Of a DNA stretch of 64,000 bases, positions 2,430-64,000 are shown one piece after another. The stretch is from positions 5,816 to 69,815 of IMG/VR virus record IMGVR_UViG_3300025626_001351; one strand, written 5' to 3'. The position numbers and the translations under genes are program-made. The first letter of the stretch is position 1; every line of letters starts with the position of its first letter. The stretch comes from a virus. The notes under the pieces were generated by a model. The model was given only the letters and a program-made list of their open reading frames with translations. It did no database searches and was not told the origin of the DNA.

Positions 2430-2431
2430 TA

Positions 2432-5925: not shown

Positions 5926-5978
5926 AGGAAATTTGTTAAAATTTTCTTTCGAACACACGATTCGTTCCAAAACGTGGG

Positions 5979-6602: not shown

Positions 6603-6606
6603 ATTT

Positions 6607-7116
6607 TTATACTATTGGTGTATCTTGATTTGTTTCTAAATTAACGTCATCTTTTCTAACTTGTGCTTCTCTACGTTGAACTGCTTTAGGGGCTATGACA
6701 TCATGGACTCCATAATCATAGTTGTAAACAGTAACAGTAGATATGTTTTTCTCAACTAAAGTTCTGTAACCTGGTTGGAGTTTTTTGTTTCTGATTTTTC
6801 CTAAATAGAATTGTTTTGAACTTTCATCCAATTGTAATTTAGTTAAGTCTAGCTTTTTGATTCGTGGAGTTTTACTATTGACTTCCATTAAATCTTCAGC
6901 TAATTTAATCATTTGTGCTGGTGGTATATGTTTTAAATCTAAACAATGGAAATATGTTTTAAATGCAGGTTGAAGAATAAATACGAAATAGTCTCTTGAT
7001 TTACCATCCACTTTCTTGTACCTAATCTTAGCCACCATACCACGTTCCAACTTTGATTTTGACAACCGAGTTGGGTCAGCTAAATTACTTCTATGTCTAC
7101 TTGTAAAATCTGCCAT
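6607..7116 (-). CDS. Hypothetical protein (weak resemblance to T4 gp2 DNA end protector)
   Basis: 169-aa basic ORF; FHCLDLKHIPP loosely recalls gp2 FLGLNLHYLPP. Confidence 0.3.
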   Translation of the reverse strand: MADFTSRHRSNLADPTRLSKSKLERGMVAKIRYKKVDGKSRDYFVFILQPAFKTYFHCLDLKHIPPAQMIKLAEDLMEVNSKTPRIKKLDLTKLQLDESSKQFYLGKIRNKKLQPGYRTLVEKNISTVTVYNYDYGVHDVIAPKAVQRREAQVRKDDVNLETNQDTPIV

Positions 7117-8384: not shown

Positions 8385-8387
8385 ATC

Positions 8388-9833
8388 TTATATCTTGTGT
8401 ATATCAAATCTTTTTCTTGGTTTCCAATTACTAAAACATCCTTCAATAGCATCGATGAATTTCTCACCCATTCTTTCTGAAGCCATATCACCTTCACCAA
8501 TGACATATTCGTGTCCTAATAATCCACATTTTGTTCTTTCTTCCGCTTCCATATTCATCCAATAATCAATAGCATCAGTTATATCTTTATGACTTGCTCT
8601 GTCATCAAATATGTATGGTGTCATAGGTGAACCTTGTAGTGATAAATTTGATGGCCACACCGGCTTCACCCACTCACCCCAAGTCAGTTCATCTATAATT
8701 GGACTATCTTTGTCATGTAAAGAACCAATATCTACATAATCATCAGCTGTTAGATATTCCCATTGTTCATTCATACCTTTGGGAGCAACATTCCATTTGA
8801 ATCCACATTGGTCTTGTAATCCACCTGTGACATTAACTACTATTGGAGTACCTGCTCTCATTGCTTCACAACTTGCGAGACCAAATCCTTCATTAGATGC
8901 TATGTTCAAACAAATATCAGCTGAGTTGTACATTATATTTAGTTCTTCTGTACTATATTTTTTGTTGGTAAATTTGTAATCACCATACTCACCTATCATT
9001 TTAACTACTTCAGCGATATCCGTACCATTATCATCTACTGGTTGTGTATGTAATACTAAAACACATTTCTTGTCAGGATGTCGTTTAGCAAAGTTACTAA
9101 ATGATAATACTAAGTCACCTGGCATTTTTCTACGAATGTTTCTATTATTCCAAATGGCTACAAAGTCATGGTCTTGAATCCCAAGGTCTTTTTTAAACTT
9201 AACTACTGATTCATCATTCGCGTCTAATGGTTTGAATAATGGTGATACTCCATGTGGAATATATTTGTATGCCCAATCTTCTTTTACCATATTATACTTA
9301 TCGAGTACACGTTTGTTGATACCATATGTTTGCTTTGAAATACCAACAAGTAAATCACAACTAGCATAAAATGGTGCATTCCATTGTGGGTCAGGTATTG
9401 AATCCCAAATGTTATAGTACATAATAGGACATATTTGTCTTACCTCGTTCTCCATTTCATATAACCATCTCCAAAATCTTGGGTCGGTAAAATGTAGAAT
9501 AGCATCTGGCTTTTCAATATTAATTAATTCTCTTAAAACTTCAGGATTACCATACCCAGTATGAGCATATATTTTAAGATTTGCATCTTTAATACCATGA
9601 CTTTTTCTGACATCTTCCGATATATCAAATACCTTACCATGTTCAGGATGTTTTAAAGCTGCACCTAATTGTACCCAATCATACTTATGAAGGGTTGAAA
9701 TTACAATTTCTTTTGATTGTGTAGCTATACCACTATGTAATCTGAGGTCATCCGATAAAAGTAATATCTTTGGCTTTTTCGGAGAATTCGGGTCTACTTT
9801 TTTAAGAGTAGGTAGTTTTATCTTATCATTCAT
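8388..9833 (-). CDS. GT4-family (GT-B) glycosyltransferase
   Basis: ILLLSDD..SGIA, YIPHG, NRNIRRK, SNEGFGLASCEAM. Confidence 0.85.
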   Translation of the reverse strand: MNDKIKLPTLKKVDPNSPKKPKILLLSDDLRLHSGIATQSKEIVISTLHKYDWVQLGAALKHPEHGKVFDISEDVRKSHGIKDANLKIYAHTGYGNPEVLRELINIEKPDAILHFTDPRFWRWLYEMENEVRQICPIMYYNIWDSIPDPQWNAPFYASCDLLVGISKQTYGINKRVLDKYNMVKEDWAYKYIPHGVSPLFKPLDANDESVVKFKKDLGIQDHDFVAIWNNRNIRRKMPGDLVLSFSNFAKRHPDKKCVLVLHTQPVDDNGTDIAEVVKMIGEYGDYKFTNKKYSTEELNIMYNSADICLNIASNEGFGLASCEAMRAGTPIVVNVTGGLQDQCGFKWNVAPKGMNEQWEYLTADDYVDIGSLHDKDSPIIDELTWGEWVKPVWPSNLSLQGSPMTPYIFDDRASHKDITDAIDYWMNMEAEERTKCGLLGHEYVIGEGDMASERMGEKFIDAIEGCFSNWKPRKRFDIHKI

Positions 9834-9856
9834 TCGTAACTCGTTCTTTTATTTAA

Positions 9857-9864
9857 TATAAATA
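9857..9864 (-). promoter_or_regulatory. Putative late promoter TATTTATA (glycan operon)
   Basis: Recurrent intergenic octamer upstream of 9833. Confidence 0.6.
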
Positions 9865-9879
9865 TACAAAAAATAATTA

Positions 9880-10224
9880 TTAAATCCTATTATATTCATC
9901 TGAAATTCTGACTATATCATCTTCTCCAAAGTAAGTACCAGTTTGTACTTCTATGAACTCCACAATCTCATCTGTTTCATTCCATGCTCTATGCCTAGAA
10001 CCTAATGGTATTTTTATACTTTCACCATACGACCTAAATACTTTTTCGTCATCTAATATAATTGTTAGATTACCTTTTGTAACAATCCAATTCTCTTGTC
10101 GTTTATGGTGGTATTGGTACGATAATTTTTGGTTTGGATTTACCGTAATCTTTTTTACTTTACATTCAGTCCAATCATAAAGTATTTCATATTTACCCCA
10201 AGGTCTTTCTTCTATTTTTCTCAT
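9880..10224 (-). CDS. Cupin, mannose-6-phosphate isomerase type II C-terminal domain
   Basis: RPWGKY, LSYQYHHKRQENW, HRAWN, IEVQTGTYFGEDDIVR. Confidence 0.85.
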   Translation of the reverse strand: MRKIEERPWGKYEILYDWTECKVKKITVNPNQKLSYQYHHKRQENWIVTKGNLTIILDDEKVFRSYGESIKIPLGSRHRAWNETDEIVEFIEVQTGTYFGEDDIVRISDEYNRI

Positions 10225-51836: not shown

Positions 51837-52676
51837 TTATTCATTACCACGTTTTTTAGCATTTGAATTACCTGAAAGTGATGGTACTTCTCCAAAAGAT
51901 ACCTTACCAACTGAAATATGACGTTTAGTATTGTTGGTAACAGCAGCATATTCTGGTACTATGTAAGCTTTAACAGTTAAACTTATATTTGCTCTCGTAA
52001 TTCGGTCTTGACCCATTTCTGATATGGTCTCAAATCCATATGATTCACCCTTTACAACAAATTTATATCTTTCACCAAATGAACGTCCTTGGAAATAAAC
52101 TATTTGCTCTACTACCTTATTAACTTGTTCCATATAATCAGTCCAAACAACTACTTCATATTCTAAATTAACATAATCAGGTCTTTCTACTGATAAAAAC
52201 TCTTTTTTAGGTGTCTCATCTGTTAATATTGAAAATGCATCATATCGATTAACATTAGTATATGTTCGTTCAAACATCTGATGAGCATCTTCGTTTTGAG
52301 CTACTTTTAATTTTGAAAGTTCTGTATTAACTGACAAGTTATTTCTTTTAAACATAATAACAGGTGTTTGTAACATCCCATTGTCATCTCGCATAAACCC
52401 ATCACGTTGTGCACTTGCCCATTTTTCAGGAGAAGCATACATTACTGGTATTGGTAAAAATCTACCATCATCTTCTACAGTAGGTTTAACATCTTTTTCT
52501 AAAAACGTTTTAAATGCAGAATCAATATCATATATACCAACATTAACATTTTTTACTTTGTCTTTATCTCTACGAAGTTGTTTTGCTTTATTAAGCTTTG
52601 GGTCAACAGCCGTAGATGATTGTGTTTGTATAATCTGAGGTTTTGAATTATCTGTATTTCTATATTTAGTTGCCAT
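51837..52676 (-). CDS. Tail terminator / sheath stabiliser (gp15-like)
   Basis: IPVMYASPEKW, PDYVNLEYE, QVNKVVEQI; consistent position. Confidence 0.65.
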   Translation of the reverse strand: MATKYRNTDNSKPQIIQTQSSTAVDPKLNKAKQLRRDKDKVKNVNVGIYDIDSAFKTFLEKDVKPTVEDDGRFLPIPVMYASPEKWASAQRDGFMRDDNGMLQTPVIMFKRNNLSVNTELSKLKVAQNEDAHQMFERTYTNVNRYDAFSILTDETPKKEFLSVERPDYVNLEYEVVVWTDYMEQVNKVVEQIVYFQGRSFGERYKFVVKGESYGFETISEMGQDRITRANISLTVKAYIVPEYAAVTNNTKRHISVGKVSFGEVPSLSGNSNAKKRGNE

Positions 52677-52677
52677 G

Positions 52678-53205
52678 TTATAGTCCTATTGGTACTTTGT
52701 TATCATTTTGATTTGAATTACCAAATCGTGTATCAACTAATTTAATACTTGTTTGTCTTGAAACGTGTGCATCACATATAATAGATACATTCAACCCTTG
52801 GTCGTCACCACCATCCCAAGTCTTTGGGTTTTTTCCGGCAAAATATTGATATGAGTATGATGCGTCAATTAAATGATATTCATCATTCCATTGAATGATG
52901 TCACCAACACTTGGTACTAATTCTCTATCTACTAAACTTTGTCTAAGAAATCTAAACTGTACCTCACGACTATAAGATTGACCATAGTCATCTGATATTT
53001 GTGCTGATTGGTTTCTTTCGATTAAACATGGTACTTTTATAGGTTGGTTGTATACTTTATCTTTTCCTTCACCATATAAGTTAGATTTAGTATCGCTTAC
53101 TGATACCATATAGTAATATATCTCTGTATCGATTATATCATCTATTAGCTCTTTGTTTAGTTTATTAAACAAACTCATATCTCGTTGTCCACCGAACAAT
53201 GCCAT
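52678..53205 (-). CDS. Neck / head-closure protein (gp14-like)
   Basis: IYYY..NLYGE, PSVGDII; consistent position. Confidence 0.65.
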   Translation of the reverse strand: MALFGGQRDMSLFNKLNKELIDDIIDTEIYYYMVSVSDTKSNLYGEGKDKVYNQPIKVPCLIERNQSAQISDDYGQSYSREVQFRFLRQSLVDRELVPSVGDIIQWNDEYHLIDASYSYQYFAGKNPKTWDGGDDQGLNVSIICDAHVSRQTSIKLVDTRFGNSNQNDNKVPIGL

Positions 53206-53208
53206 AAA

Positions 53209-54372
53209 TTACCCTATAAAAATTGGTCTTGGTACTCTATTTAAAGTCTCTTCTAAATATTCAGACTCTTCTTTTCTTGCTTCCATTAATGACCTACGAG
53301 ATGTTGAATCTAACATTTCTTTTAAGTCAGTTAATAGAGTTTCTTTTTCTGCAGAAGCTTCATTTCTTAAATCTGCACCATCAAGTGTTACATCAGCTCC
53401 TGGTATTGGAATAGAACTAAATTTAGCTCTAATAGCACCTAACATTTCTTTAGCTAATGCTAATGCGTATCTAGCAATCCATTGTTTACCTGCACTATTG
53501 ATATTGGCATATGTTAATCTTCCAAATGGTGCGTTTGATAAATCACTCACAACATTAGTATTAGCAATAGGTGATTTAGTTTCACTTTCAAGTGTATATT
53601 CAAAATATACTTTAGCACCAGTGTCACCTGCCGTTGGTACAGGAAATAGTTTTACTCTCTGACCATCTATATGAAATCCAAATGAAGATTTACGGATGTA
53701 ATCGTTAAATTCAATAGCTTGTAATCTTAAGAGGTCATCAAACATTGGTTGCATCATAAATGATACACCAGGTGAGTAATTACCCCAACCAAAGGTTTGC
53801 ATCATTTGTTGAGAACCAAGACCAGTACCTACAAATGGGTCAAAGTATCTAATAATTGCAGGTGGTGATGTATGAAATACCTTACGAAGTGTTACTCCAT
53901 TAGATACTGAACCACTTTCTAAATTTACTCTAGAATCGTCACCTAAATCATAAATTTGTTGACCACCATTCATTTCGAATGAACCTGTATAAACAGTAAC
54001 TCTACCACCAGAACCAGCTTCTGTACCATAATCTTTAGCTATATTAACTACACCACCTAAATTTGTAGCTATTTCTGTATCTGATAAATCTAAATCTAAA
54101 GATGAGCCTTGTATAGATAACATATTCTCTTTTGCTCTGTACTGATTTACTTGTGAAGAATATTCATTAGCTGCCTCTTCAAGACAAGTAAAAAAGTTTA
54201 TATCTTGTAATTCAACATCTACGATTGGATAACCTAATCGCTTAGCACACCATTCAGCTACTTTTGGAGCATCTGATTGAAACTTAACGTCTGCATCAAA
54301 AAACCCAAAAGGAGTTGATGACCCACTTGAAAATGAACCTGAACCAGGCCAAATTGGAATATCTACTGCCAT
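53209..54372 (-). CDS. Neck / head-tail adaptor protein (gp13-like)
   Basis: RLGYPIVDVEL, WIARYALALAKEMLG.IR.KF..IPIPG..VTLDG. Confidence 0.75.
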   Translation of the reverse strand: MAVDIPIWPGSGSFSSGSSTPFGFFDADVKFQSDAPKVAEWCAKRLGYPIVDVELQDINFFTCLEEAANEYSSQVNQYRAKENMLSIQGSSLDLDLSDTEIATNLGGVVNIAKDYGTEAGSGGRVTVYTGSFEMNGGQQIYDLGDDSRVNLESGSVSNGVTLRKVFHTSPPAIIRYFDPFVGTGLGSQQMMQTFGWGNYSPGVSFMMQPMFDDLLRLQAIEFNDYIRKSSFGFHIDGQRVKLFPVPTAGDTGAKVYFEYTLESETKSPIANTNVVSDLSNAPFGRLTYANINSAGKQWIARYALALAKEMLGAIRAKFSSIPIPGADVTLDGADLRNEASAEKETLLTDLKEMLDSTSRRSLMEARKEESEYLEETLNRVPRPIFIG

Positions 54373-54409: not shown

Positions 54410-56140
54410 TTATCTTTCCCTATTTTTCATAAAAGAAACTGTAATATAACGTGTTCCTTTAGTAGTAGCACGAGCTCCATGCTTATGTGTTATGTTTCCT
54501 GGATGTAAGGTAGCATAACCTATTGAATTCTTAACTAATTTTTGTTGTCTTTTAAAATAAGTACCACCACCTTCATATTCATCTAAGTCTGATAGTTGTA
54601 CTAAACAAGTTAAATCAGAAGAATCATGGTGTATTGACAAATGACCTTGTGCGTCAGGTACATATTTGGCTAAGAAGTTTTCACATTGTAAATCATCCCA
54701 ACCCTCTCCTTCAAGACCATATATATACACTCCCAATTGCATTACATAGTCTTTTAAAACAGCATTGTATATATCATCCATACCTATCTCAGTTAATAAC
54801 ATATCAGTAGTTGGATAAAATTCATGCCGTTTAAATGTCCACTTTTGCGAATGCTCAGCCTCTTCTCGAATCATTTTACAAAAATCTTCAGTAAATAATG
54901 GGAATGATAAACAATTATTAAATGGTTCATCTATAATTAAATCCCATTCCTTGGTTCTTACTGAATATGTTAAGAATTTGCTTTCCCACTCTTTTTTGTT
55001 ATCCCAATAAGAATATAATTCCGGATGTAATTTATCAATATTTTCATTAGTACTTCTTACTTTAAAAGTATGTGCACCAGTTGGTATTTTAATTGAAGTA
55101 TTTATCATATCAATCCACTCATTACTTCGAGTTTCCCAATTTTGTTGTCTTGCAAATTTTTCAGCTACATCTAAGTAGTCATATCCATTCTCTTCGATAA
55201 ACTCATAAGTTGATAAAAACGTCGCCTCTTGAATAGTTTCAGAAGTGTCAGCTCTAACTATTGCAGCTTTTCCATTTAGTAATGATTTTAAATTACCAGT
55301 ATCAGTTGAAATTATTTTAGTTCTACCCATCATCATTTCAAGGGCTGTAATACAATAAGTTTCATCATAGTTAGATGGGTACATCCAATATTCTGCCGAT
55401 TTAATCTGTTTATATAAATCTGCTGGTGGTAAGTTGCCCAACCATTTTACATCTTGATAAAACATTCTATTTTTATAGTCATTATACCATTCCATAGCAT
55501 ATGGTGGTGATGCGACCCATAACGTTAAGTATGGGTTTATTTTTTTTAATGATGGCCATAGTTTAATTAATACTTCAAGTCCTCTATCTGAGGCTGACGT
55601 ATAAACTATTTTATTTTTAAAAGTTTCTTGTTCTATTTCATCAAAATCAATAGGGTCAATAGCATTACCTAAAACAAACACTCGTTCTGGATCTAAATTA
55701 TAGTCCATAATTATATTTTTTCGTTGGTGTTCGGAAACTGCTATGATTTTTGTTAATCGTGGGTCGTTTAGATAATCTTTACCACCATTTGGTAATTCTT
55801 CACCATTATACCAAGGATAAAACTCCATATTATGCATCCAAAAGTATGATTTTTCATATGTGATATTTAAATCTTCTAATAAGGGTAAATAATTGATATA
55901 ATTACTTGCGATTACAACATCAAAGTAAATGTTACTCTCCAAATTAGCATATGGTATATACTTTACACCATCTGATTCAGATTCTATTACTTCACCTGTA
56001 ATAGTAACATCATGTCCCATAGATTGGAACTTTTCAGCTAATTTTATACTACAATATTCTGACCCACCTATTCCATTATTTAACCAATAATCTTTATTTA
56101 TGGGTTCTTTATGATACCCTGTACAAAATAGTATTTTCAT
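54410..56140 (-). CDS. Fusion of GT4 glycosyltransferase and PLOD-like 2OG-Fe(II) lysyl hydroxylase
   Basis: N-terminal GIGGSE, YTSASDRGL, YPSNYDETYCITALEM. C-terminal FPLFTEDFC..EAEH..W, PTTD, HHDSS, YEGGGTYF, LHPGNITHKHG..TTKGTRYITVSF. Confidence 0.85.
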   Translation of the reverse strand: MKILFCTGYHKEPINKDYWLNNGIGGSEYCSIKLAEKFQSMGHDVTITGEVIESESDGVKYIPYANLESNIYFDVVIASNYINYLPLLEDLNITYEKSYFWMHNMEFYPWYNGEELPNGGKDYLNDPRLTKIIAVSEHQRKNIIMDYNLDPERVFVLGNAIDPIDFDEIEQETFKNKIVYTSASDRGLEVLIKLWPSLKKINPYLTLWVASPPYAMEWYNDYKNRMFYQDVKWLGNLPPADLYKQIKSAEYWMYPSNYDETYCITALEMMMGRTKIISTDTGNLKSLLNGKAAIVRADTSETIQEATFLSTYEFIEENGYDYLDVAEKFARQQNWETRSNEWIDMINTSIKIPTGAHTFKVRSTNENIDKLHPELYSYWDNKKEWESKFLTYSVRTKEWDLIIDEPFNNCLSFPLFTEDFCKMIREEAEHSQKWTFKRHEFYPTTDMLLTEIGMDDIYNAVLKDYVMQLGVYIYGLEGEGWDDLQCENFLAKYVPDAQGHLSIHHDSSDLTCLVQLSDLDEYEGGGTYFKRQQKLVKNSIGYATLHPGNITHKHGARATTKGTRYITVSFMKNRER

Positions 56141-56141
56141 A

Positions 56142-57434
56142 TTACTCCACTATATAATTTAAAACTTCTTCTTTATTTCCATAACGTGTTCTATCCATCC
56201 ATGATTGTAGTTTGTATGAACTACCATCGTCATCATTCCAATTCCAATCAAACCCACCTAACTCACTAATACGTTCGTGAATAGAAGTATCGTAGTAATC
56301 TCGAATTAATCGGGCTCTTCTGTTAATATCAACTCTATTATTGTCAACAGTAGAGTCACCATTATTATATTGTACATACAACATTTTTTTAAGATGAATA
56401 AACTTTGTTTCTAAAAATGTTTTTAGAATTAATTCATAATCATCAGCTACTGATATATTACGATTGTGTCCACCTACTTTATGATAAGTATCACGATTCC
56501 AAATACGACAATGATTAGGCATTCCAATATTAAATCTAATTGTTTTTGGATTTATATCAGGATAGTGATGGGTTAACCATGATTTACCATCAGCCTCTAC
56601 CCAAGTGTGACCAGCATATGCCCATGCAAATCGATTGTCAGTATGTTGATACCAATCATCACCAATATGACCATACACTCGTGGTGAGTCGTCTTTTTCA
56701 ACCTCAGTTACATCAGTATATATAAACCCAGCGTCTGGATATTGCTTACTAGCATTAAGTACGTCTTCCAAACAAGTAGAAATTAACCAATCATCATGGT
56801 CTAATTCAAATAACCACTCACCATTACACATCATAGCTGCTCTGTGTTTGGCTTCTCCTACATTTCCTGATGTAGTTGGTGTAATTCTATGTATATGTAC
56901 TCTATAATCTTGACTAGCTATATCTTCTAAGTAATCCCAAGTAGTATTATCACCAATTGGTGAATCATCTACAACTACCCATTCCCAATTTTCATAGGTT
57001 TGGTTAACTAAACTCTCGTATGTTCTAAATATTCGTTCGTTAGTTTTATATGTTGGTGTAAAGATTGATAGTATGGGATTATCCACATCTCTGTAAATAT
57101 TATTTATATTACATGACCAAAATGTAGACTGACATACTACATCATTAGCTAAAACATTGTCAGATGGAGCAGTATCATATGATATTATCTTACTTGATAC
57201 CATAGTGTGGTGGTCAAGTTTTAAAATATCAGTTTGATGAGTATAATCACCAATAGTCATAACTATATCGGGATTATGTTCTGCTAAATGTTTTTTAAAT
57301 CCATCTGAAGACTCATATGAATATAAAATTACACTTTCTTGTAAGTCTTCTTCGAAATAAATGTCAGATTTAAGTGATATTTTTCCAAATCTATTCCATC
57401 CATATATTAACGCTGTAGGTAATTTTGTTTTCAT
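56142..57434 (-). CDS. GT2-family glycosyltransferase
   Basis: SIFTPTY, WEWVVVDDS, FELDHDD, GFIYTD, VADDYEL. Confidence 0.85.
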   Translation of the reverse strand: MKTKLPTALIYGWNRFGKISLKSDIYFEEDLQESVILYSYESSDGFKKHLAEHNPDIVMTIGDYTHQTDILKLDHHTMVSSKIISYDTAPSDNVLANDVVCQSTFWSCNINNIYRDVDNPILSIFTPTYKTNERIFRTYESLVNQTYENWEWVVVDDSPIGDNTTWDYLEDIASQDYRVHIHRITPTTSGNVGEAKHRAAMMCNGEWLFELDHDDWLISTCLEDVLNASKQYPDAGFIYTDVTEVEKDDSPRVYGHIGDDWYQHTDNRFAWAYAGHTWVEADGKSWLTHHYPDINPKTIRFNIGMPNHCRIWNRDTYHKVGGHNRNISVADDYELILKTFLETKFIHLKKMLYVQYNNGDSTVDNNRVDINRRARLIRDYYDTSIHERISELGGFDWNWNDDDGSSYKLQSWMDRTRYGNKEEVLNYIVE

Positions 57435-57440
57435 ACATTA

Positions 57441-58043
57441 TTATCTATAAGGTTCACCACCTACCCATAATACAAATGATTTTCTAATACCTTTTGAGAC
57501 AGGGGTAACTCTATGTAAATAAAAAGATGGAAATATCACAGCAGCTCCTTGAACTCGTGGTGCTGTTAATTGTCTACCTATATTAAATTGTAAATCACCA
57601 TTATCATATTCAGAAGGGTCTGATAATTGTACTGTTACTGAGATTTTACGTTGATTTTGGATTTCTGTTCCACAATCCATGTGCCAATTGTAACCACCTT
57701 CTTGAGTTCCGTAATATTCTGTATATTGGATTTGCTCATTCATGGTAGATAGGTCAAACTTCCACATTTCATTATTAGCTTGAATAATCATATCATGAAG
57801 TTTAGAATAAACCCATCTCCATTGTTTATTTTGTGGACACCATTTTATTCGTGATTTTCTATATTCAGATATTTTTGATTCGTCACCTTCACCAGTTACA
57901 GCATCTTGAAATGGTAATTCTTTGGTCATTGACTCTATAATTGTAAGTTCTTCTTTTGAAAACCCATTTTTGAACCAATAATAATCTGTATAGTTTACGT
58001 CATCTCGGGAAGACGACCTATTAAATCCGTATTTTTCTAACAT
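57441..58043 (-). CDS. 2OG-Fe(II) oxygenase (PKHD/prolyl-hydroxylase-like)
   Basis: YNWHMD, RKISVTVQLSDP..GDLQF, FPSFYLHRVTPV..GIRKS. Confidence 0.85.
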   Translation of the reverse strand: MLEKYGFNRSSSRDDVNYTDYYWFKNGFSKEELTIIESMTKELPFQDAVTGEGDESKISEYRKSRIKWCPQNKQWRWVYSKLHDMIIQANNEMWKFDLSTMNEQIQYTEYYGTQEGGYNWHMDCGTEIQNQRKISVTVQLSDPSEYDNGDLQFNIGRQLTAPRVQGAAVIFPSFYLHRVTPVSKGIRKSFVLWVGGEPYR

Positions 58044-58063
58044 AACTAATTATTTGATTTATA

Positions 58064-58071
58064 TATAAATA
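58064..58071 (-). promoter_or_regulatory. Putative late promoter TATTTATA (hydroxylase-GT cassette)
   Basis: Recurrent intergenic octamer upstream of 58043. Confidence 0.6.
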
Positions 58072-58082
58072 TTAAAATGTTT

Positions 58083-61000
58083 TTAATAAAAACTACCAGA
58101 ATGGAATGTTCTTACAATATATACTGCATCACCACTTGACCACCCATTAGGTTTGAACATAAGTTTTTGTCCAACTACATCAAAATAACCACCACCACTT
58201 ATTACATTACCCTTTTCACCAAGAGTTCCTTTAGTTCCAGTAAGTCCCTTGTTTCCAGTAGCAGCTGTTGCGCCTGTTACACCTTTAGCACCTTGAGCTC
58301 CTTGGTCTCCACTTAAACCATTTGCACCTGCAGCACCAGTATTTCCTTTTATACCCTTTGTACCTTTTGAACCTTGAGCGCCTGTATCTCCCGTCGCACC
58401 TGTACTACCTTTTACACCTTTTGTACCTTGAGCACCTTGAGCGCCTGTATTACCAGCATCACCTGTATTACCTTTTGTTCCTGTAGCTCCCTTAGCACCT
58501 TGAGCTCCTAAGTTTCCAGCATTACCCTTTTCACCTTGATTTCCACTAGCACCCTTTTCACCTTGAGGGCCTGTATCTCCTGCTGAACCAGTGTTACCTT
58601 TTATACCCTTTGTACCTTTTGAACCTTGAGCACCTTGATTACCAGCATCACCTGTGTTACCTTTTATACCTTTTGAACCTTTTGAACCTTGAGCACCTTG
58701 ATTACCATCGTTACCTGTGTTACCTTTTATACCCTTTGTACCTTTTGAACCTTGAGCACCTTCGTTTCCAGCAGCACCAATATTTCCTTTTATACCTTTT
58801 GTACCCTTTGAACCTTGAGCACCTTCGTTTCCAGCAGCACCAGTATTTCCTTTTATACCTTTTGTACCTTTTGAACCTTGAGCGCCTGTATTACCATCGT
58901 TACCTGTGTTACCCTTTATACCCTTTGTACCCTTACTACCTTGAGCACCTTGATTACCATCGTTACCTGTGTTACCTTTTATACCCTTAGCACCTTTAGC
59001 ACCTTGAGCACCTGTATTACCATCATTACCAACTGACCCTGTATTACCAGTATTTCCTTTTGAACCTTGAGCTCCTTCATTACCAATATCACCAGTATTT
59101 CCTTTACTACCCGTAGCACCACCACCACCTTGAGGGCCTGTATTTCCTGCTGCACCTGTGTTACCAACAGCACCAGTTGCACCACCACCGCCTTGAGGGC
59201 CTGTATTACCACTAGCTCCTTGTAGACCTGTTGAACCTTGTGCACCTTGAGGGCCTGTATTTCCAGCTGCCCCTGTATTTCCTTTATCACCCTTAGCACC
59301 TTGTCCACCTTGAGGCCCTGTATTTCCTGCAGCACCTGTTGAACCTAAATTACCCTTATTTCCTAAAGAACCTTTATTTCCAGCTGAACCTGTGTTTCCT
59401 TTATCACCTTTAACACCTTGAGCACCTTGAGGGCCTGTATTTCCAGCTGCCCCAGTATTTCCTTTGTCACCTTTAGCACCCTGCCCACCTTGAGGACCTG
59501 TGTTTCCAGCAGAACCAGTATTTCCTTGGTTACCTTTATTTCCTAAAGAACCTTTATTTCCAGCTGACCCAGTATTTCCTTTATCACCTTTAGCACCTTG
59601 TCCACCTTGAGGGCCTGTGTTTCCAGCTGAACCTGTATTTCCTTTTAACCCTTTTGTACCCTTTGAACCTTGAGCGCCTGTATTACCACTAGCACCAGTA
59701 TTTCCTTTATTACCTTTAGCACCTTGTCCACCTTGAGGGCCTGTGTTTCCAGCAGCTCCACCCGAACCAGTATTTCCTTGGTTACCTTTTGAACCTTGTG
59801 CGCCTTGGTTTCCAGCATTACCTGTGTTTCCTTTTGGGCCTTTAGCACCTTGTCCACCTTGAGGGCCTGTGTTTCCAGCTGACCCAATATTTCCTTTATC
59901 ACCTTTAGCACCTTGTCCACCTTGAGGGCCTGTGTTTCCAGCTGAACCTGTATTTCCTTTATCACCTTTAGCACCTTGTCCACCTTGAGGGCCTGTGTTA
60001 CCAGCCGCACCTGTCGAACCTACGTTACCCTTATTTCCTAAAGAACCTTTATTTCCAGCATTACCTGTATTTCCTTTTGGGCCTTTAGCACCTTGAGCAC
60101 CTGTTGAACCTTTATTTCCAGCATTACCTGTATTTCCTTTATCACCTTTAGCACCCTGCCCACCTTGAGGACCTGTGTTTCCAGCATTACCTGTGTTTCC
60201 TTTATCGCCTTTAGCACCTTGAGCACCTGTTGAACCTTGATTACCAGCTGCCCCAGTATTTCCTTTATCGCCTTTAGCACCTTGAGCACCTGTTGAACCT
60301 TGATTACCAGCTGCCCCAGTATTTCCTTTATCGCCTTTAGCACCTTGAGCTCCTGTTGAACCTTGATTACCAGCTGCCCCAGTATTTCCTTTATCACCTT
60401 TAGCACCTTGAGCACCTGTTGAACCTTGGTTTCCAGCATTACCTGTGTTTCCTTTTGGGCCTTTAGCACCTTGAGCACCTGTTGAACCTTTATTTCCAGC
60501 ATTACCTGTATTTCCTTTTGGGCCTTTAGCACCTTGTCCACCTTGAGGGCCTGTATCTCCTGCTGAACCTGTATTTCCTTTATCACCTTTAGCACCTTGA
60601 GCACCTGTTGAACCTTGGTCACCAGCTGCCCCAGTAGGACCTGTATTTCCTGTATTTCCTTTAGCACCCGTTGCACCTTTAGCCCCAGCATGACCTGTGT
60701 TTCCTTTAGGACTTGCTCCTTGTGCACCTGTTGAACCTTTAGCCCCAGCATGACCTTTAGGGCCGGTTGGATTTGCCCCTTGAGCACCTTGAGGGCCTGT
60801 AGCCCCAGCATGACCTTTAGCTCCTTGAGGACTTGCCCCTTGAGCACCTTGAGGGCCTGTAGCCCCAGCATGACCTTTAGCTCCTTGAGGACTTGCCCCT
60901 TGAGCACCTTGAGGGCCTGTAGCCCCAGCATGACCTTTAGGGCCGGTTGGATTTGCCCCTTGAGCACCTTGAGGGCCTGTAGCCCCAGCATGACCTTTAG

Positions 61001-62249
61001 CTCCTTGAGGATTTGCCCCTTGAGCACCTTGAGGGCCTGTGTTTCCAGCATGACCTTTGTTTCCTTTAGGACTTGCCCCTTGAGCACCTTGAGGGCCTGT
61101 ATCTCCAGCATGACCTTTGTTTCCTTTAGGACTTGCCCCTTGAGCACCTTGAGGGCCTGTGTTTCCAGCATGACCTTTGTTTCCTTTAGGACTTGCCCCT
61201 TGTGCACCTTGAAGGCCTGTGTTTCCAGCATGACCTTTAGCACCTTGATTACCTGTCGACCCAGTCTCACCTATATGACCTTTAGCTCCAGCAGCTCCAG
61301 TAGCTCCTTGAGAGCCTGTAGCTCCTGCCGCGGCCTCATGACCTCTTTTACCTTTAGTACCTTTAGCACCTGTTGCACCTTTTGGGCCTTGTGGGCCTGA
61401 CCCACCACCTGAACCTGAACTACCTGTGGCACCACCTGCACCTTTTTGTCCTTTAGCACCTTGTGGGCCGGTTGAAGAGTCTGAATCTTCACATGCGTTA
61501 CATGAAGCAAATGAACTACCAACAGTTGGGCCTGCTAATCCGAATTCAGTTTCCCCTATTACTTCCCAACAACCAGACTGGCCATTAATGAATGTGACTA
61601 CAATACCAGGATCTAGTGTTGATTGCATATTGTAAAAAAGGGAACTTCCACCTTCACAAGATTCGAACTCTGTTGGGAAACCTTCATCTTCACCAAATCT
61701 GTTTCGTACTACAAAATTATTTGATAAATATAAATCACTTGGTTCTATATCAAACCATACAAGAGCGTCTTTTTCATTTTCAAGATAAGCTCCAGTGATT
61801 GGTACATATTCAAATGTATTTGTGGTATGGTCGTAATGTACTAAGTGATGTGTATCTGGATTTACATCAGTAACTTTTTCAAAATAAGAATTATACCAAA
61901 TTTCCCCTTGAGAATTTTCTAATTGTTTATCAGCAACCAAGATACCTTGGTCTTCTCCAACAGAAAGATTACCTCTATCTGTCTCTAATGTGTATATATA
62001 ATAACCCGCACAACTTGAAACGTCATCGTGTTTTCCAATTCTATTAACTACTTGGTTTTCTACTGCAGTAAGGAACGATGTATCTTGTGAACTACCACTC
62101 CAATCAAATGGAGTGTTATCTCTATCTGACGTTTGAGTAATACCACTAATATTAACACCAACAATTGTTGAGCCACTATTAAAGGTTTGAGCTTGTGATT
62201 GTGCTCCTGATAATGATGTTAAAATCTGTGACGAGTGTAATATTGCCAT
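58083..62249 (-). CDS. Collagen-like fibre protein with degenerate N-terminal Hint domain and Cys-rich linker
   Basis: 1388 aa; roughly residues 261-1348 are Gly-X-Y triplets. Confidence 0.9.
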   Translation of the reverse strand: MAILHSSQILTSLSGAQSQAQTFNSGSTIVGVNISGITQTSDRDNTPFDWSGSSQDTSFLTAVENQVVNRIGKHDDVSSCAGYYIYTLETDRGNLSVGEDQGILVADKQLENSQGEIWYNSYFEKVTDVNPDTHHLVHYDHTTNTFEYVPITGAYLENEKDALVWFDIEPSDLYLSNNFVVRNRFGEDEGFPTEFESCEGGSSLFYNMQSTLDPGIVVTFINGQSGCWEVIGETEFGLAGPTVGSSFASCNACEDSDSSTGPQGAKGQKGAGGATGSSGSGGGSGPQGPKGATGAKGTKGKRGHEAAAGATGSQGATGAAGAKGHIGETGSTGNQGAKGHAGNTGLQGAQGASPKGNKGHAGNTGPQGAQGASPKGNKGHAGDTGPQGAQGASPKGNKGHAGNTGPQGAQGANPQGAKGHAGATGPQGAQGANPTGPKGHAGATGPQGAQGASPQGAKGHAGATGPQGAQGASPQGAKGHAGATGPQGAQGANPTGPKGHAGAKGSTGAQGASPKGNTGHAGAKGATGAKGNTGNTGPTGAAGDQGSTGAQGAKGDKGNTGSAGDTGPQGGQGAKGPKGNTGNAGNKGSTGAQGAKGPKGNTGNAGNQGSTGAQGAKGDKGNTGAAGNQGSTGAQGAKGDKGNTGAAGNQGSTGAQGAKGDKGNTGAAGNQGSTGAQGAKGDKGNTGNAGNTGPQGGQGAKGDKGNTGNAGNKGSTGAQGAKGPKGNTGNAGNKGSLGNKGNVGSTGAAGNTGPQGGQGAKGDKGNTGSAGNTGPQGGQGAKGDKGNIGSAGNTGPQGGQGAKGPKGNTGNAGNQGAQGSKGNQGNTGSGGAAGNTGPQGGQGAKGNKGNTGASGNTGAQGSKGTKGLKGNTGSAGNTGPQGGQGAKGDKGNTGSAGNKGSLGNKGNQGNTGSAGNTGPQGGQGAKGDKGNTGAAGNTGPQGAQGVKGDKGNTGSAGNKGSLGNKGNLGSTGAAGNTGPQGGQGAKGDKGNTGAAGNTGPQGAQGSTGLQGASGNTGPQGGGGATGAVGNTGAAGNTGPQGGGGATGSKGNTGDIGNEGAQGSKGNTGNTGSVGNDGNTGAQGAKGAKGIKGNTGNDGNQGAQGSKGTKGIKGNTGNDGNTGAQGSKGTKGIKGNTGAAGNEGAQGSKGTKGIKGNIGAAGNEGAQGSKGTKGIKGNTGNDGNQGAQGSKGSKGIKGNTGDAGNQGAQGSKGTKGIKGNTGSAGDTGPQGEKGASGNQGEKGNAGNLGAQGAKGATGTKGNTGDAGNTGAQGAQGTKGVKGSTGATGDTGAQGSKGTKGIKGNTGAAGANGLSGDQGAQGAKGVTGATAATGNKGLTGTKGTLGEKGNVISGGGYFDVVGQKLMFKPNGWSSGDAVYIVRTFHSGSFY
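58206..61469 (-). repeat. Collagen Gly-X-Y coding repeat (54- and 60-nt higher-order units)
   Basis: For example GAKGDKGNTGAAGNQGSTGAQ-type units and 20-aa [20 protein letters not shown] units. Confidence 0.9.
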
Positions 62250-62265
62250 CGTAACTCCTAATTAA

Positions 62266-63999
62266 TTATATTGAACCACTTGTATACATTAGAACGACAC
62301 CTTTAAAACTACCACTTGTAAATGTTAGTAAGTTATCACTCGTTGAGAATTCGAATCCACCACTTGCTAAATTAGCTATGGTTGTACCCAAGGCAGATTC
62401 ACCTTTTTGTCCTTTAATACCACCAGCTCCTTGAGAACCTTGTACACTTAAACCTTGTGCACCTTGAGGACCTGTTGCCCCAGTAGCACCTTTAGCACCT
62501 TGAGGACTTGCCCCTTGAGCACCTTGGTCACCTTTAGCTCCATCAGCTCCAGTAGCTCCTTGAGGACTTGAACCTTGAGCACCTGTATCACCTTTAGCCC
62601 CAATATTACCTGTAGCACCTTGAGGACTTGCCCCTTGAGCACCTGTATCACCTTTAGCTCCACCAGCACCTGTAGCTCCTTGAGGACTTGCCCCTTGAGC
62701 ACCTTGATTACCCTGTGCACCTCTAGCTCCTTTATCACCTTGTGGTGAAGAACCTTGAGCACCTTGGTCACCCTTAGCTCCAGCAGCACCTGTAGCTCCT
62801 TGAGGACTTGCCCCTTGAGCACCTGTATCACCTTTAGCTCCACCAGCACCTGTAGCTCCTTGAGGACTTGCCCCTTGAGCACCTTGGTCACCTTTAGCAC
62901 CACCAGCTCCAGTAGCTCCTTGAGGACTTGCCCCTTGAGCACCTTGATTACCTTGAGCACCTTGGTCACCCTTATCACCTTGTGGTGAAGAACCTTGAGC
63001 ACCTTGGTCACCTTTAGCACCAGTAGCTCCCTTAGCTCCTTGAGGACTTGCCCCTTGAGCACCTTGATTACCTTGTGCCCCAGTAGCTCCCTTAGCACCT
63101 TGAGGACTTGCCCCTTGAGCACCTTGAGGGCCTGTATTACCTTTAGCTCCTTGAGGACTTGCCCCTTGAGCACCTGTGTCACCTTTTGTTCCCGTAGCAC
63201 CTTTAGCACCTTGAGGACTTGAACCTTGAGCACCTTGTGGGCCTTGAGCTCCAGTAGCTCCTTGAGGACTTGCCCCTTGAGCACCTGTATCACCTTTTGT
63301 TCCTGTAGCACCTTTAGCACCTTGAGGACTTGAACCTTGAGCACCCGTATCACCTTTAGTACCAGTAGCTCCCTTAGCACCTTGAGGACTTGCCCCTTGA
63401 GCACCTTGTGGGCCTTGAGCTCCCGTAGCACCTTGTGGTGAAGAACCTTGAGCACCTGTATCACCTTTTGCGCCAGTAGCACCTTTAGCACCTTGAGGAC
63501 TTGAACCTTGAGCACCTTGGTCACCTTTAGCTCCACCTGCTCCTTGGTCACCTTGGGGTGAGGCACCTTGAGCACCTTGGTCACCTTTTACACCTGTAGC
63601 ACCTTTTGAACCTTGAGGACTTGAACCTTGAGCACCTTGTGGGCCTTGAGCACCAACAGCACCTGTAGCACCTTGAGGACTTGAACCTTGAGCACCTGTA
63701 TCACCTTTTGTTCCTGTAGCTCCCTTAGCACCTTGAGGACTTGAACCTTGAGCACCTGTATCACCTTTTGTTCCTGTAGCACCTTTAGCACCTTGAGGAC
63801 TTGAACCTTGAGCACCCGTATCACCTTTAGTACCAGTAGCACCTTTAGCACCTTGAGGACTTGAACCTTGAGCACCTTGTGGGCCTTGAGCTCCCGTAGC
63901 CCCTTGAGGACTTGAACCTTGAGCACCTGTATCACCTTTTGTTCCTGTAGCTCCCTTAGCACCTTGAGGACTTGAACCTTGAGCACCTGTATCACCTTT
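62266..63999 (-). CDS. Second collagen-like fibre protein, 5' end outside the window (missing from ORF track)
   Basis: Frame open from the window edge ([16 protein letters not shown]...) to TAA at 62266; C-terminus ..[48 protein letters not shown]. Confidence 0.88.
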
Positions 64000-64000
64000 T

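What the first reader, a model, noticed from the sequence alone, without database searches (positions are those of the whole stretch)
54410..56140. PLOD-like domain fused to a GT-B (GT4) domain rather than GT-A
Seen: the C-terminal ~200 aa follows the PLOD catalytic domain block by block as I recall it (FPLFTEDFC / FPIFTEVAC; PTTD / PTID; HHDSS / HHDAS; YEGGG; HPGNITHKHG..TTKGTRYITVSF / HPGRLTHYHEG..TTRGTRYIAVSF), with intact HxD..H..R ligands. The N-terminus has a GT4 E-X7-E motif (DETYCITALE). Known: LH3 and L230 use GT-A domains. Inference: an independently assembled bifunctional hydroxylase-glycosyltransferase, relevant to the origin of PLODs.
Basis: partly seen in the sequence, partly recalled or inferred. 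Interest (0 to 1): 0.75.

Follow-up and report, generated by a model that had tools for sequence, protein, structure and literature searches.

The report
Phage collagen lysyl hydroxylase-glycosyltransferase fusion
An uncultured marine T4-like phage encodes one protein joining a bacterial-type sugar transferase to a true relative of the animal collagen lysine hydroxylase, directly after two giant lysine-rich collagen-like fibre genes, so the phage probably hydroxylates and sugar-coats its own fibres.

Summary
ORF 54410..56140 (minus strand, 576 aa) has an N-terminal GT-B/GT4 glycosyltransferase with an invariant E-x7-E motif. Its C-terminal domain matches human LH3 (E 6e-29) and mimivirus L230 (E 5e-22; Foldseek TM 0.85-0.87), and no other oxygenase in the PDB. 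The Fe and 2-oxoglutarate residues are intact.

The gene sits in a cassette on one strand: two collagen-like genes (Lys in 100 of 355 Y positions, no Y-position Pro), a small 2OG oxygenase, a GT2, the GT4-LH fusion, then neck genes. This order recurs in all judgeable related viral contigs. Other phage lineages pair relatives with collagen-like genes in different arrangements.

New here:
- 36 of the 120 closest relatives are three-domain GT4-GT25-LH proteins.
- The GT25 part matches human COLGALT1 (E 1e-20).
- Trees suggest the window's two-domain form arose by GT25 loss.

Most likely the enzyme hydroxylates fibre lysines and glycosylates them. The acceptor and sugar are inferred.

My five literature searches found no description of a phage PLOD-type enzyme. 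This scan has reported the same family twice before, on other DNA. I rate it a new variant of a known kind. Whether it bears on the origin of PLODs is unresolved, because the tree root is unresolved.

The parts
54410..56140 (-). GT4-LH fusion ORF, 576 aa plus stop
   Evidence: There are 215 relatives at E<=1e-3, and 232 viral contigs encode a relative.
55100..56140 (-). N-terminal GT-B (GT4) glycosyltransferase domain, residues 1-347. The E-x7-E motif E260/E268 lies at 55337..55363.
   Evidence: Pfam PF00534 and PF13692 score above their cut-offs. Foldseek matches PimA, MshA, BshA and tll1591 at TM 0.63-0.74. E260 and E268 are invariant in 34 of 34 aligned family members.
54413..55048 (-). C-terminal PLOD-type lysyl hydroxylase domain, residues 365-576. 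Fe ligands are H504 and D506 (54623..54631) and H554 (54479..54481). R564 (54449..54451) is the 2-oxoglutarate-binding residue.
   Evidence: Matches LH3 at E 6e-29 and L230 at E 5e-22. Foldseek TM to L230 is 0.85-0.87. Residues align to LH3 H667, D669, H719, R729 and Y656, whose roles come from passages of PMC6082870. All are invariant in 34 of 34.
56142..57434 (-). GT2 (GT-A) glycosyltransferase, 430 aa, with an unassigned N-terminal stretch of about 120 aa
   Evidence: Pfam PF00535 at E 9e-18. Matches the chondroitin synthase GT2 domain at E 2e-12. Present upstream of the fusion in 65 of 74 judgeable related loci.
57441..58043 (-). Small 2OG-Fe(II) oxygenase, 200 aa, PKHD/PiuC-like
   Evidence: Pfam PF13640 at E 3.8e-12. 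Matches PDB 3dkq and PiuC at E 5e-6 to 1e-5. Present in 70 of 70 judgeable related loci.
58083..62249 (-). Collagen-like fibre protein 1, 1388 aa, with 355 G-X-Y triplets
   Evidence: Lys in 100 of 355 Y positions and 1 X position; Pro in 0 Y positions and 31 X positions. PF01391 matches are above cut-off.
62266..63999 (-). Collagen-like fibre protein 2, with its 5' end cut by the contig end; 157 triplets in 20-residue units
   Evidence: Lys in 34 of 157 Y positions. The window ends at the end of a 69,815-base viral record.
53209..54372 (-). Neck / head-completion protein (T4 gp13-like), directly downstream of the fusion
   Evidence: phrog_211 head-tail adaptor. Annotated as head completion protein in Flavobacterium phage immuto, 39% identity. 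Follows the fusion in 80 of 80 related loci.
51837..53205 (-). 175-aa protein (52678..53205) and gp15-like tail sheath stabiliser (51837..52676)
   Evidence: PF16724 at E 2.4e-5, 24.1 bits, just under the cut-off of 25. Both are present in 80 of 80 related loci.

Best explanation
The gene encodes a cytoplasmic two-domain enzyme of an uncultured marine T4-like myophage.

The C-terminal domain is a PLOD-type Fe(II)/2-oxoglutarate lysyl hydroxylase. It most likely converts Lys in the Y position of G-X-K triplets of the phage's own two collagen-like fibre proteins, encoded just upstream, into hydroxylysine. This would happen before or during trimerisation.

The N-terminal GT-B (GT4, retaining-type) domain then transfers a sugar from a nucleotide sugar. 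The acceptor is either hydroxylysine itself or a sugar already placed on it. The neighbouring GT2 and the small 2OG oxygenase would add further modifications.

Shown: the domain identities, the intact catalytic residues, the conserved cassette, and the K-rich substrate candidates.

Inferred: the substrate, the order of steps, the acceptor of the GT4 domain, and the sugar.
For: (1) Domain identity.
- LH3 at E 6e-29 and L230 at E 5e-22 are the only oxygenases hit in the PDB.
- Foldseek TM to L230 LH is 0.85-0.87.
- The Pfam pair found on true PLODs is present.

(2) Catalytic residues. H504, D506, H554, R564 and Y493 in the LH domain, and E260 and E268 in the GT4 domain, are invariant in 34 of 34 family members. 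The LH3 residue roles come from passages of PMC6082870.

(3) Substrate candidates lie next door on the same strand. One has 355 triplets with 100 Y-position Lys and no Y-position Pro. The other has 157 triplets with 34 Y-position Lys. X-Lys-Gly is the site hydroxylated in animal collagen (PMC2877668 abstract, seen in the listing).

(4) Synteny across 80 related viral loci:
- neck genes follow the fusion in 80 of 80;
- the small oxygenase is present in 70 of 70 judgeable;
- the 3' end of a collagen-like gene is present in 68 of 68 judgeable;
- the GT2 is present in 65 of 74 judgeable.

(5) Independent lineages. Of 78 further loci found with three-domain relatives, 55 carry a collagen-like ORF of at least 15 triplets. 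Many are on 40-62 kb contigs without the myophage neck genes, and have the oxygenase on the other side. Their ORFs reach 229 of 442 and 279 of 510 Y-position Lys. In the one lineage lacking an adjacent collagen gene, 3 of 4 contigs tested carry collagen-like ORFs elsewhere; the fourth is a 21-kb fragment.

(6) Rosetta-stone support. 36 of the 120 closest relatives insert a GT25 domain between GT4 and LH. That domain matches human procollagen galactosyltransferase 1 at E 1e-20.

(7) In 9 of 74 judgeable loci the GT2 is missing, so GT4 is the only transferase in the cassette. This favours GT4 acting directly on the protein.
Against: There is no biochemical evidence. The acceptor, the sugar and the regiochemistry are all untested.

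The 80 syntenic loci belong to one phage lineage and count as roughly one observation.

Some relatives sit next to Lys-poor, Ser/Thr-rich collagen-like ORFs. L162 has three ORFs with 0, 4 and 4 Y-position Lys in 306, 308 and 302 triplets. L111 has 25 in 614.

Eleven loci of one lineage have no collagen-like ORF within 10 kb.

The 8 bacterial homologues have no G-X-Y ORF within 10 kb, and their neighbours are unrelated metabolic genes. Collagen-like genes elsewhere in those genomes (4 of 5 above cut-off) are only mildly more frequent than in control genomes (4 of 14).

LH3 Cys691, which positions 2-oxoglutarate, is Thr527 here.

The relative orientation of the two domains in the model is uncertain (pTM 0.61, linker 351-368 at pLDDT below 50).
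Confidence: 0.7

Rival explanations
1. The LH domain hydroxylates fibre lysines, but the GT4 domain does not glycosylate hydroxylysine. It instead O-glycosylates Ser/Thr in the G-X-T/S triplets, or only extends a glycan started by another transferase (GT2 here, GT25 in three-domain relatives).
For: Thr fills 88 of 355 Y positions in fibre 1. Some relatives adjoin Ser/Thr-rich, Lys-poor collagen-like ORFs. The Bacillus collagen-like protein BclA is glycosylated (review PMC8968730, passages). In the animal pathway, the inverting GT25 enzyme primes Hyl and a retaining enzyme extends it (PMC12003778 abstract). GT4 enzymes are retaining; that point is recalled, not from a call.
Against: In 9 of 74 judgeable loci GT4 is the only transferase in the cassette. 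GT4 is always covalently tied to LH, whereas GT2 and GT25 come and go.
Confidence: 0.2
2. The cassette enzymes act on host molecules, such as O-antigen or cell-envelope components, as auxiliary host-takeover genes rather than on phage fibres.
For: Glycosyltransferases in marine myophage host-recognition regions have been read this way (PMC7029224, passages). PHROGs files both halves under 'moron, auxiliary metabolic gene and host takeover'. The bacterial homologues are stand-alone genes.
Against: The gene lies inside the structural module, between the fibre and neck genes, in 80 of 80 loci. It is fused to a protein lysyl hydroxylase. It co-occurs with collagen-like genes in several unrelated phage contexts.
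Confidence: 0.05
3. The GT4 domain is a non-catalytic scaffold or substrate-binding module, like the accessory domain of LH3, and only the hydroxylase is active.
For: LH3 carries a second, inactive GT-like domain (PMC6082870, passages).
Against: E260, E268, G23 and G26 are invariant in 34 of 34 members at 42-80% identity, and R186 is kept in 31 of 34. The GT-B fold is modelled at high confidence, with block means of 81-97 over residues 1-350.
Confidence: 0.05

Closest known systems
Human LH3 / PLOD3 (PDB 6fxk and others)
   Same: The LH domain is alignable over about 210 residues (E 6e-29). It has the same HxD...H Fe triad, 2-oxoglutarate Arg and Tyr, and the same Pfam pair on the LH part. In both, the hydroxylase is fused to a glycosyltransferase in one chain.
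   Different: The partner is a GT-B GT4 domain, not the GT-A 'GT_PLOD' plus accessory domains. The protein is 576 aa against 738 aa (the LH3 length is recalled). No N-terminal signal peptide is evident by eye. Cys691 is replaced by Thr. It falls in a separate starred clade from animal PLODs.
Acanthamoeba polyphaga mimivirus L230 (LH domain PDB 6ax6/6ax7)
   Same: Both are viral bifunctional LH-plus-glycosyltransferase enzymes, thought to modify the virus's own collagen-like proteins. The LH fold superposes at TM 0.85-0.87 with 33% identity. L230 function is taken from passages of PMC5802723 and PMC9546862.
   Different: L230 has the human-like domain architecture (PMC5802723 passage), infects a eukaryote, and is reported to place glucose directly on Hyl. 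Here the host is a bacterium, the transferase fold is GT-B, and the sugar is unknown. I could not place L230 itself in my trees, because no tool returned its sequence as a usable record.
Human COLGALT1 / GLT25D1 with LH3 (PDB 8zgc, 9evj)
   Same: 36 of the 120 closest relatives carry a GT25 domain that matches COLGALT1 at E 1e-20. This gives GT4-GT25-LH in one chain, a one-protein counterpart of the animal hydroxylate, galactosylate, glucosylate pathway.
   Different: The window's protein lacks GT25. A separate GT2 gene sits next to it, and three-domain relatives in the same synteny keep that GT2 as well (L079, L080, L099-L103). GT2 is therefore not simply a GT25 substitute.
Retaining GT4 GT-B glycosyltransferases (PimA, MshA, BshA, alpha-1,2-glucosyltransferase tll1591)
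   Same: Same fold (TM 0.63-0.74), same E-x7-E motif, same Pfam families PF00534 and PF13692.
   Different: Sequence identity is only 12-17%. Those enzymes act on lipids, small molecules or glycans, not on a collagen-like protein.
Predicted bacterial hydroxylase/sulfotransferase operons with collagen-like proteins (Iyer et al. 2010, PMC2938197)
   Same: Same concept: prokaryotic 2OG oxygenases encoded beside collagen-like or tail-fibre-like proteins and predicted to modify them (passages).
   Different: [quoted passage not shown] They are not PLOD-type LH domains fused to glycosyltransferases.

Membership tests
PLOD / collagen lysyl hydroxylase (LH domain family) | DSBH domain specifically similar to LH enzymes rather than to generic P4H or AlkB enzymes | tested here: met
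   Matches LH3 at E 6e-29 and L230 at E 5e-22, with no other oxygenase at E<=1 in the PDB. Foldseek TM to L230 is 0.85-0.87. PF25238 scores 37.2 bits against a cut-off of 31.
PLOD / collagen lysyl hydroxylase (LH domain family) | Fe(II) triad HxD...H plus 2-oxoglutarate Arg and Tyr | tested here: met
   H504, D506, H554, R564 and Y493 align to LH3 H667, D669, H719, R729 and Y656, and are invariant in 34 of 34. LH3 Cys691 is Thr527 here.
PLOD / collagen lysyl hydroxylase (full-length PLOD architecture) | N-terminal GT-A 'GT_PLOD' domain (PF25342) plus accessory domain | tested here: not met
   There is no PF25342 match. The N-terminus is GT-B GT4. True PLODs in the same search do carry PF25342.
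PLOD / collagen lysyl hydroxylase (LH domain family) | Groups with animal PLODs in a tree of LH domains | tested here: not met
   The protein lies in a starred 90-row set of GT4/GT25/stand-alone forms. This is separate from the starred 35-row set that holds Lingula PLOD1. It belongs to the LH superfamily but is not an orthologue of animal PLODs.
PLOD / collagen lysyl hydroxylase (LH domain family) | Tail-to-tail dimer through a Leu (L230 L873, LH3 L715) inserted into an aromatic pocket | tested here: inconclusive
   The aligned residue is Ile550, four residues before H554, and is invariant in the family. The interface description comes from passages of PMC5802723 and PMC6082870. Oligomeric state is not established.
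PLOD / collagen lysyl hydroxylase (LH domain family) | 5-hydroxylation of Lys in X-Lys-Gly of collagenous sequences | not testable with these tools
   Only contextual support: the adjacent fibre genes have 100 of 355 and 34 of 157 Y-position Lys.
CAZy GT4-type GT-B glycosyltransferases | Two-Rossmann GT-B fold with Pfam Glycos_transf_1 | tested here: met
   PF00534 scores 32.5 bits (cut-off 26.4) and PF13692 scores 32.5 bits (cut-off 27). Foldseek TM to PimA is 0.71 and to tll1591 is 0.72-0.74.
CAZy GT4-type GT-B glycosyltransferases | E-x7-E motif in the C-terminal Rossmann domain | tested here: met
   E260 and E268 are invariant in 34 of 34. The motif definition is recalled, not from a call.
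CAZy GT4-type GT-B glycosyltransferases | Retaining transfer from a nucleotide sugar | not testable with these tools

The most novel reading that the evidence does not exclude
Marine phages and some bacteria carry a complete collagen lysine-modification pathway in single polypeptides (GT4-GT25-LH). This pathway builds a Hyl-linked disaccharide on phage fibres by a route partly non-orthologous to the animal one, with GT-B replacing the LH3 GT-A glucosyltransferase. The animal PLOD and COLGALT modules would then descend from this prokaryotic/viral pool of shuffled LH, GT25 and GT modules, rather than being animal or giant-virus inventions.
Probability: 0.2. Interest if true: 0.85.

Novelty: new variant of a known kind. 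Interest (0 to 1): 0.7.

Why it matters
Hydroxylysine and its O-linked sugars are treated as hallmarks of animal collagen, with mimivirus as the only viral exception. A 2022 review states that most prokaryotic collagen-like proteins are not hydroxylated or glycosylated, and that phage collagens are only short segments (PMC8968730, passages).

Here a PLOD-type hydroxylase is common in marine phages:
- at least 232 and 310 viral contigs matched in two scans;
- 215 protein clusters matched.

It sits beside fibre proteins of over 1000 residues, and it occurs in modular combinations with GT4, GT25 and GT_PLOD domains.

If the predicted chemistry is real, three things follow:
1. A new class of phage virion modification, which could affect host recognition or fibre stability.
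2. Bacterial-cytoplasm-compatible enzymes for making hydroxylated, glycosylated recombinant collagen.
3. Material for asking where the animal collagen-modification enzymes came from.

Tried and rejected
- Complex prediction on two copies of the LH domain (residues 365-576, with alignment A1) returned 'no answer' (score 0.00, mark 0.42). It says nothing either way about dimerisation.
- The search for related loci with the single proteins P0110 and P0144 found nothing. The alignment A2 then worked.
- The INPHARED phage collection has no full-length relative: 13 records matched, and 0 covered 80% or more of the query.
- BFVD has no viral model that covers both domains. The top hits cover only the GT4 half (TMq at most 0.51), plus a Megavirus procollagen-lysine dioxygenase for the LH half.
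- I tried to identify mimivirus L230 among the GT_PLOD-LH representatives that fall on the phage side of the tree. P0165 and P0151 are not L230 (E 2e-21 and 1e-25 to 6ax6).
- The listing of cluster members gave names for only 2 of the 10 clusters asked about. The taxa behind the GT25-GT_PLOD-LH proteins remain unknown.
- The paper PMC3243560 (Luther 2011, on L230) is not held. L230 function is therefore cited second-hand, from PMC5802723 and PMC9546862.
- Rooting the LH tree with the window's own 200-aa oxygenase gave a 7.1-long branch and an open root. I rejected any claim about the direction of transfer between phages and animals.
- Considered and rejected: that the neighbouring GT2 replaces the missing GT25. 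Three-domain relatives in the same synteny keep the GT2 (L079, L080, L099-L103).
- Supplementary files of the cited papers were not available and could hold alignments relevant to residue roles.
Full report
**What is there.**
ORF 54410..56140 on the minus strand encodes 576 aa. Pfam finds GT4-type families in the N-terminal half: PF00534 and PF13692 above their cut-offs, and PF13439 below its cut-off. It finds PF25238 ('OGFOD2-like') at residues 368-474.

phmmer against the PDB aligns residues 365-571 with human LH3 (E 6e-29) and with the LH domain of mimivirus L230 (E 5e-22). The remaining 8 of the 14 listed sequences have E>=0.074 and are not oxygenases. True PLODs recovered later carry the same PF25238 plus 2OG-FeII_Oxy signature on their LH part.

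An AlphaFold2 model built on a 34-sequence alignment has mean pLDDT 86.1 and pTM 0.61, with a disordered linker at 351-368. Foldseek against the PDB gives three kinds of hit:
- full-length LH3, at E 2e-19;
- the L230 LH domain, at TM 0.85-0.87, rmsd 2.2-2.5 A and 33% identity;
- for the N-terminal half, GT-B GT4 enzymes: PimA, MshA, BshA and the alpha-1,2-glucosyltransferase tll1591.

**Catalytic residues.**
I counted positions along the alignment and took residue roles from passages of the LH3 structure paper (PMC6082870). The mapping is:
- H504, D506 and H554 correspond to the LH3 Fe ligands H667, D669 and H719;
- R564 and Y493 correspond to the 2-oxoglutarate residues R729 and Y656;
- LH3 Cys691 is Thr527 here;
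- the dimer-lock Leu (LH3 L715, L230 L873; PMC5802723) is Ile550.

These residues, together with E260 and E268 of the GT4 E-x7-E motif, are invariant in 34 of 34 aligned family members that are 42-80% identical to the query.

**Surroundings.**
All genes in this region are on the minus strand. In the direction of transcription the order is:
1. A collagen-like ORF cut by the contig end (62266..63999).
2. A 1388-aa collagen-like ORF (58083..62249).
3. A 200-aa 2OG oxygenase (57441..58043; PF13640; PiuC/3dkq-like at E about 1e-5).
4. A 430-aa GT2 (56142..57434).
5. The GT4-LH fusion.
6. A gp13-like neck protein, a 175-aa protein and a gp15-like tail sheath stabiliser.

The long fibre ORF has 355 G-X-Y triplets. 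Lys is in 100 Y positions and 1 X position. Pro is in 0 Y positions and 31 X positions. The second ORF has 157 triplets with 34 Y-position Lys. The fibres therefore offer abundant X-Lys-Gly sites and no classical prolyl-4-hydroxylase sites.

From recalled T4 gene order (12, wac, 13, 14, 15), the fibre genes occupy the position of the whisker and short-fibre genes.

The window is part of a 69,815-base viral record estimated to be 35% complete. Its nearest cultured relatives, judged by the neck protein, are Microcystis phage Mel-JY01 (48%) and Flavobacterium phage immuto (39%). The host is unknown.

**How widespread it is, and the domain combinations.**
The search for homologous proteins returned 215 proteins at E<=1e-3. 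Of the best 120, 84 are GT4-LH (472-603 aa) and 36 are GT4-GT25-LH (786-842 aa). The inserted GT25 domain of P0110 matches human procollagen galactosyltransferase 1 at E 1e-20.

A full HMMER scan with the LH domain alone found 1905 representatives at E<=1e-3, 451 at E<=1e-10 and 82 at E<=1e-30. I classified the best 150 with local HMMs and checked 20 of them with Pfam:

| Architecture | Count among best 150 |
|---|---|
| LH alone (many are fragments) | 61 |
| GT4-GT25-LH | 24 |
| GT25-LH | 15 |
| GT_PLOD-LH | 12 |
| GT25-GT_PLOD-LH | 11 |
| GT4-LH | 4 |
| Other single cases | 23 |

One GT_PLOD-LH representative, P0260, is Lingula anatina PLOD1.

**Trees.**
I built a quick IQ-TREE of 134 LH domains plus the window's 200-aa oxygenase as outgroup. 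It splits the family into two starred sets:
- a 35-row set holding the GT_PLOD forms, including the animal anchor (SH-aLRT 98);
- a 90-row set holding the GT4, GT25 and many stand-alone forms (SH-aLRT 96).

Three GT_PLOD-LH proteins nest in the second set, so domain shuffling is frequent. The outgroup branch is 7.1 long and the root is open, so I make no claim about direction.

A careful tree of concatenated GT4+LH segments from 39 proteins was rooted on the neighbouring GT4-bearing clade. It shows the following:
- The three-domain forms are basal.
- The two-domain forms fall in one 19-row clade (SH-aLRT 96 in the quick run). This clade also holds three nested three-domain proteins and a 7-row clade (100/100) that holds the two proteins traced to bacterial genomes, P0088 (Chromatiales) and P0112 (Aliishimia); the source of the other five rows is not known.
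- Three changes of state are needed in 200 of 200 bootstrap trees.

The window's protein is therefore most simply a three-domain enzyme that has lost GT25.

**Context in relatives.**
232 viral contigs encode a close relative, and 80 were fetched. Among those 80 loci:
- The neck genes follow the fusion in 80 of 80.
- The small oxygenase is present in 70 of 70 loci with enough upstream sequence.
- The 3' end of a collagen-like gene precedes the oxygenase in 68 of 68 judgeable loci. In 66 of these the ORF has at least 20 triplets; in 2 only the conserved C-terminal domain is visible.
- The GT2 is present in 65 of 74 judgeable loci. In the other 9 the oxygenase abuts the fusion directly.

These loci are one lineage, so they count as little more than one observation.

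A second scan, with an alignment of three-domain proteins, found 310 contigs. 80 were kept, of which 78 were new. Of those 78, 55 have a collagen-like ORF of at least 15 triplets on the same strand. Many are on 40-62 kb contigs with no myophage neck genes and with the oxygenase downstream instead of upstream. Their Y-position Lys counts reach 229 of 442 and 279 of 510.

Of the 23 loci without a collagen-like ORF, 12 lack upstream sequence. The other 11 belong to one lineage in which the enzyme gene sits between the head genes and the neck gene. Three of four contigs tested from that lineage carry collagen-like ORFs elsewhere, in open frames of 248 to 1661 aa (the 248-aa one lies at a contig end); the fourth is a 21-kb fragment.

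**Evidence that cuts the other way.**
- Some adjacent collagen-like ORFs are Ser/Thr-rich and Lys-poor. L162 has 0, 4 and 4 Y-position Lys in 306, 308 and 302 triplets. L111 has 25 in 614.
- Eight bacterial genome loci encode relatives: Granulosicoccaceae (two), a Chromatiales symbiont, a Rhodobacteraceae MAG, Aliishimia, a Flavobacteriaceae MAG, Thiotrichales and Aquimarina.
- None of those eight has a G-X-Y ORF within 10 kb, and the ten neighbouring genes tested at two of these loci (L082, L085) are unrelated metabolic genes.
- Collagen-family matches elsewhere in five of these genomes (4 of 5 above cut-off) are only modestly more frequent than in control genomes (4 of 14).
- One of them, Aliishimia, does have a collagen-like ORF with 64 of 158 Y-position Lys.

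**Mechanism.**
The best-supported reading has two steps. The LH domain hydroxylates Y-position lysines of the nascent fibre chains in the host cytoplasm. The GT4 domain then glycosylates the fibre.

GT4 is the only transferase that is always present and always fused to LH. It is also the sole cassette transferase in 9 loci. For those reasons I favour direct transfer to hydroxylysine, at about even odds, as reported for L230 (second-hand, PMC9546862).

The alternative is that GT2 or GT25 primes the site and GT4 extends the glycan, which would mirror the animal inverting-then-retaining order. A third option is that GT4 targets Ser/Thr.

The role of the 200-aa oxygenase is open, because the fibres have no Y-position Pro.

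**Comparison and novelty.**
The protein works like LH3 and L230 in that it is a bifunctional LH plus glycosyltransferase. It fails the full-length PLOD architecture test, because it has no GT_PLOD domain, and it is not in the animal PLOD clade. I therefore file it as a member of the LH domain family in a new architecture.

Five full-text searches, with passages read in seven papers, turned up no description of a phage PLOD-type hydroxylase or of a GT4-LH fusion. The nearest ideas in print are the following:
- Mimivirus L230 and R699.
- Iyer et al. 2010, who predicted other hydroxylase families acting on bacterial collagen-like proteins.
- The reading of marine myophage glycosyltransferases as host O-antigen modifiers.

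Subscription journals and supplementary files were not searchable.

Two earlier reports of this scan, on other genomes, describe the same family and reached the same reading. I saw them only after my own. My additions are:
- the GT25-bearing relatives and their COLGALT1 match;
- the census of architectures;
- the inference that the two-domain form arose by GT25 loss;
- the independent-lineage contexts;
- the counter-examples.

**Verdict.**
The finding is a new variant of a known kind. Interest is 0.7.

Noticed in passing
57441..58043 (-): The 200-aa PKHD/PiuC-like 2OG oxygenase is kept beside the collagen genes in 70 of 70 judgeable loci. It also occurs downstream of three-domain relatives in other lineages. 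Yet the fibres have no Y-position Pro; the X position holds 31 Pro and 98 Asn. Its substrate is unexplained.
   Followed up: partly
62266..63999 (-) and residues 356-513 of ORF 58083..62249: The collagen-like repeats come in strict 20-residue units: six G-X-Y triplets plus two extra residues (G-S-S-P-Q-G). This gives a regular four-residue interruption of the triplet register every 20 residues, with two Y-position Lys per unit.
   Followed up: partly
58000..64000: GC rises from about 0.32 to 0.44-0.49 over the collagen-like genes. This reflects Gly/Ala/Gln codon content rather than foreign origin. Long spurious ORFs appear in other frames of the repeats.
   Followed up: no
56142..57434 (-): The GT2 protein has an N-terminal stretch of about 120 aa with no family match. 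The gene is absent from 9 of 74 judgeable related loci, yet it is retained next to three-domain GT4-GT25-LH relatives.
   Followed up: partly
P0255, P0232, P0218, P0263, P0215 (metagenomic proteins, 917-1159 aa): Single polypeptides with GT25 + GT_PLOD + LH, that is COLGALT-like fused to a complete PLOD. Eleven representatives have this architecture. They come from unnamed contigs of 10-25 kb, so the organisms are unknown.
   Followed up: partly
L162, L163, L165 (viral contigs), 2..9926: Three tandem collagen-like ORFs of about 1100 aa each sit directly upstream of a GT4-GT25-LH gene. They are made of G-S/T-S, G-P-I/Q and G-P/I-I/Q/R triplets and contain almost no Lys.
   Followed up: partly
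L082, L083, L085 (bacterial genome contigs): Bacterial GT4-LH homologues are isolated genes among unrelated metabolic genes, such as a GGDEF/EAL protein, a GDSL lipase and an aminotransferase. No collagen-like gene lies within 10 kb. They fall in a 7-row clade (100/100) that is sister to the phage two-domain clade.
   Followed up: partly
L167 1..12283: In one myophage lineage the three-domain enzyme gene sits between the head-morphogenesis genes (portal, protease, scaffold, major capsid, PhoH-like) and the gp13-like neck gene. The collagen-like genes lie tens of kilobases away on the same contigs.
   Followed up: partly
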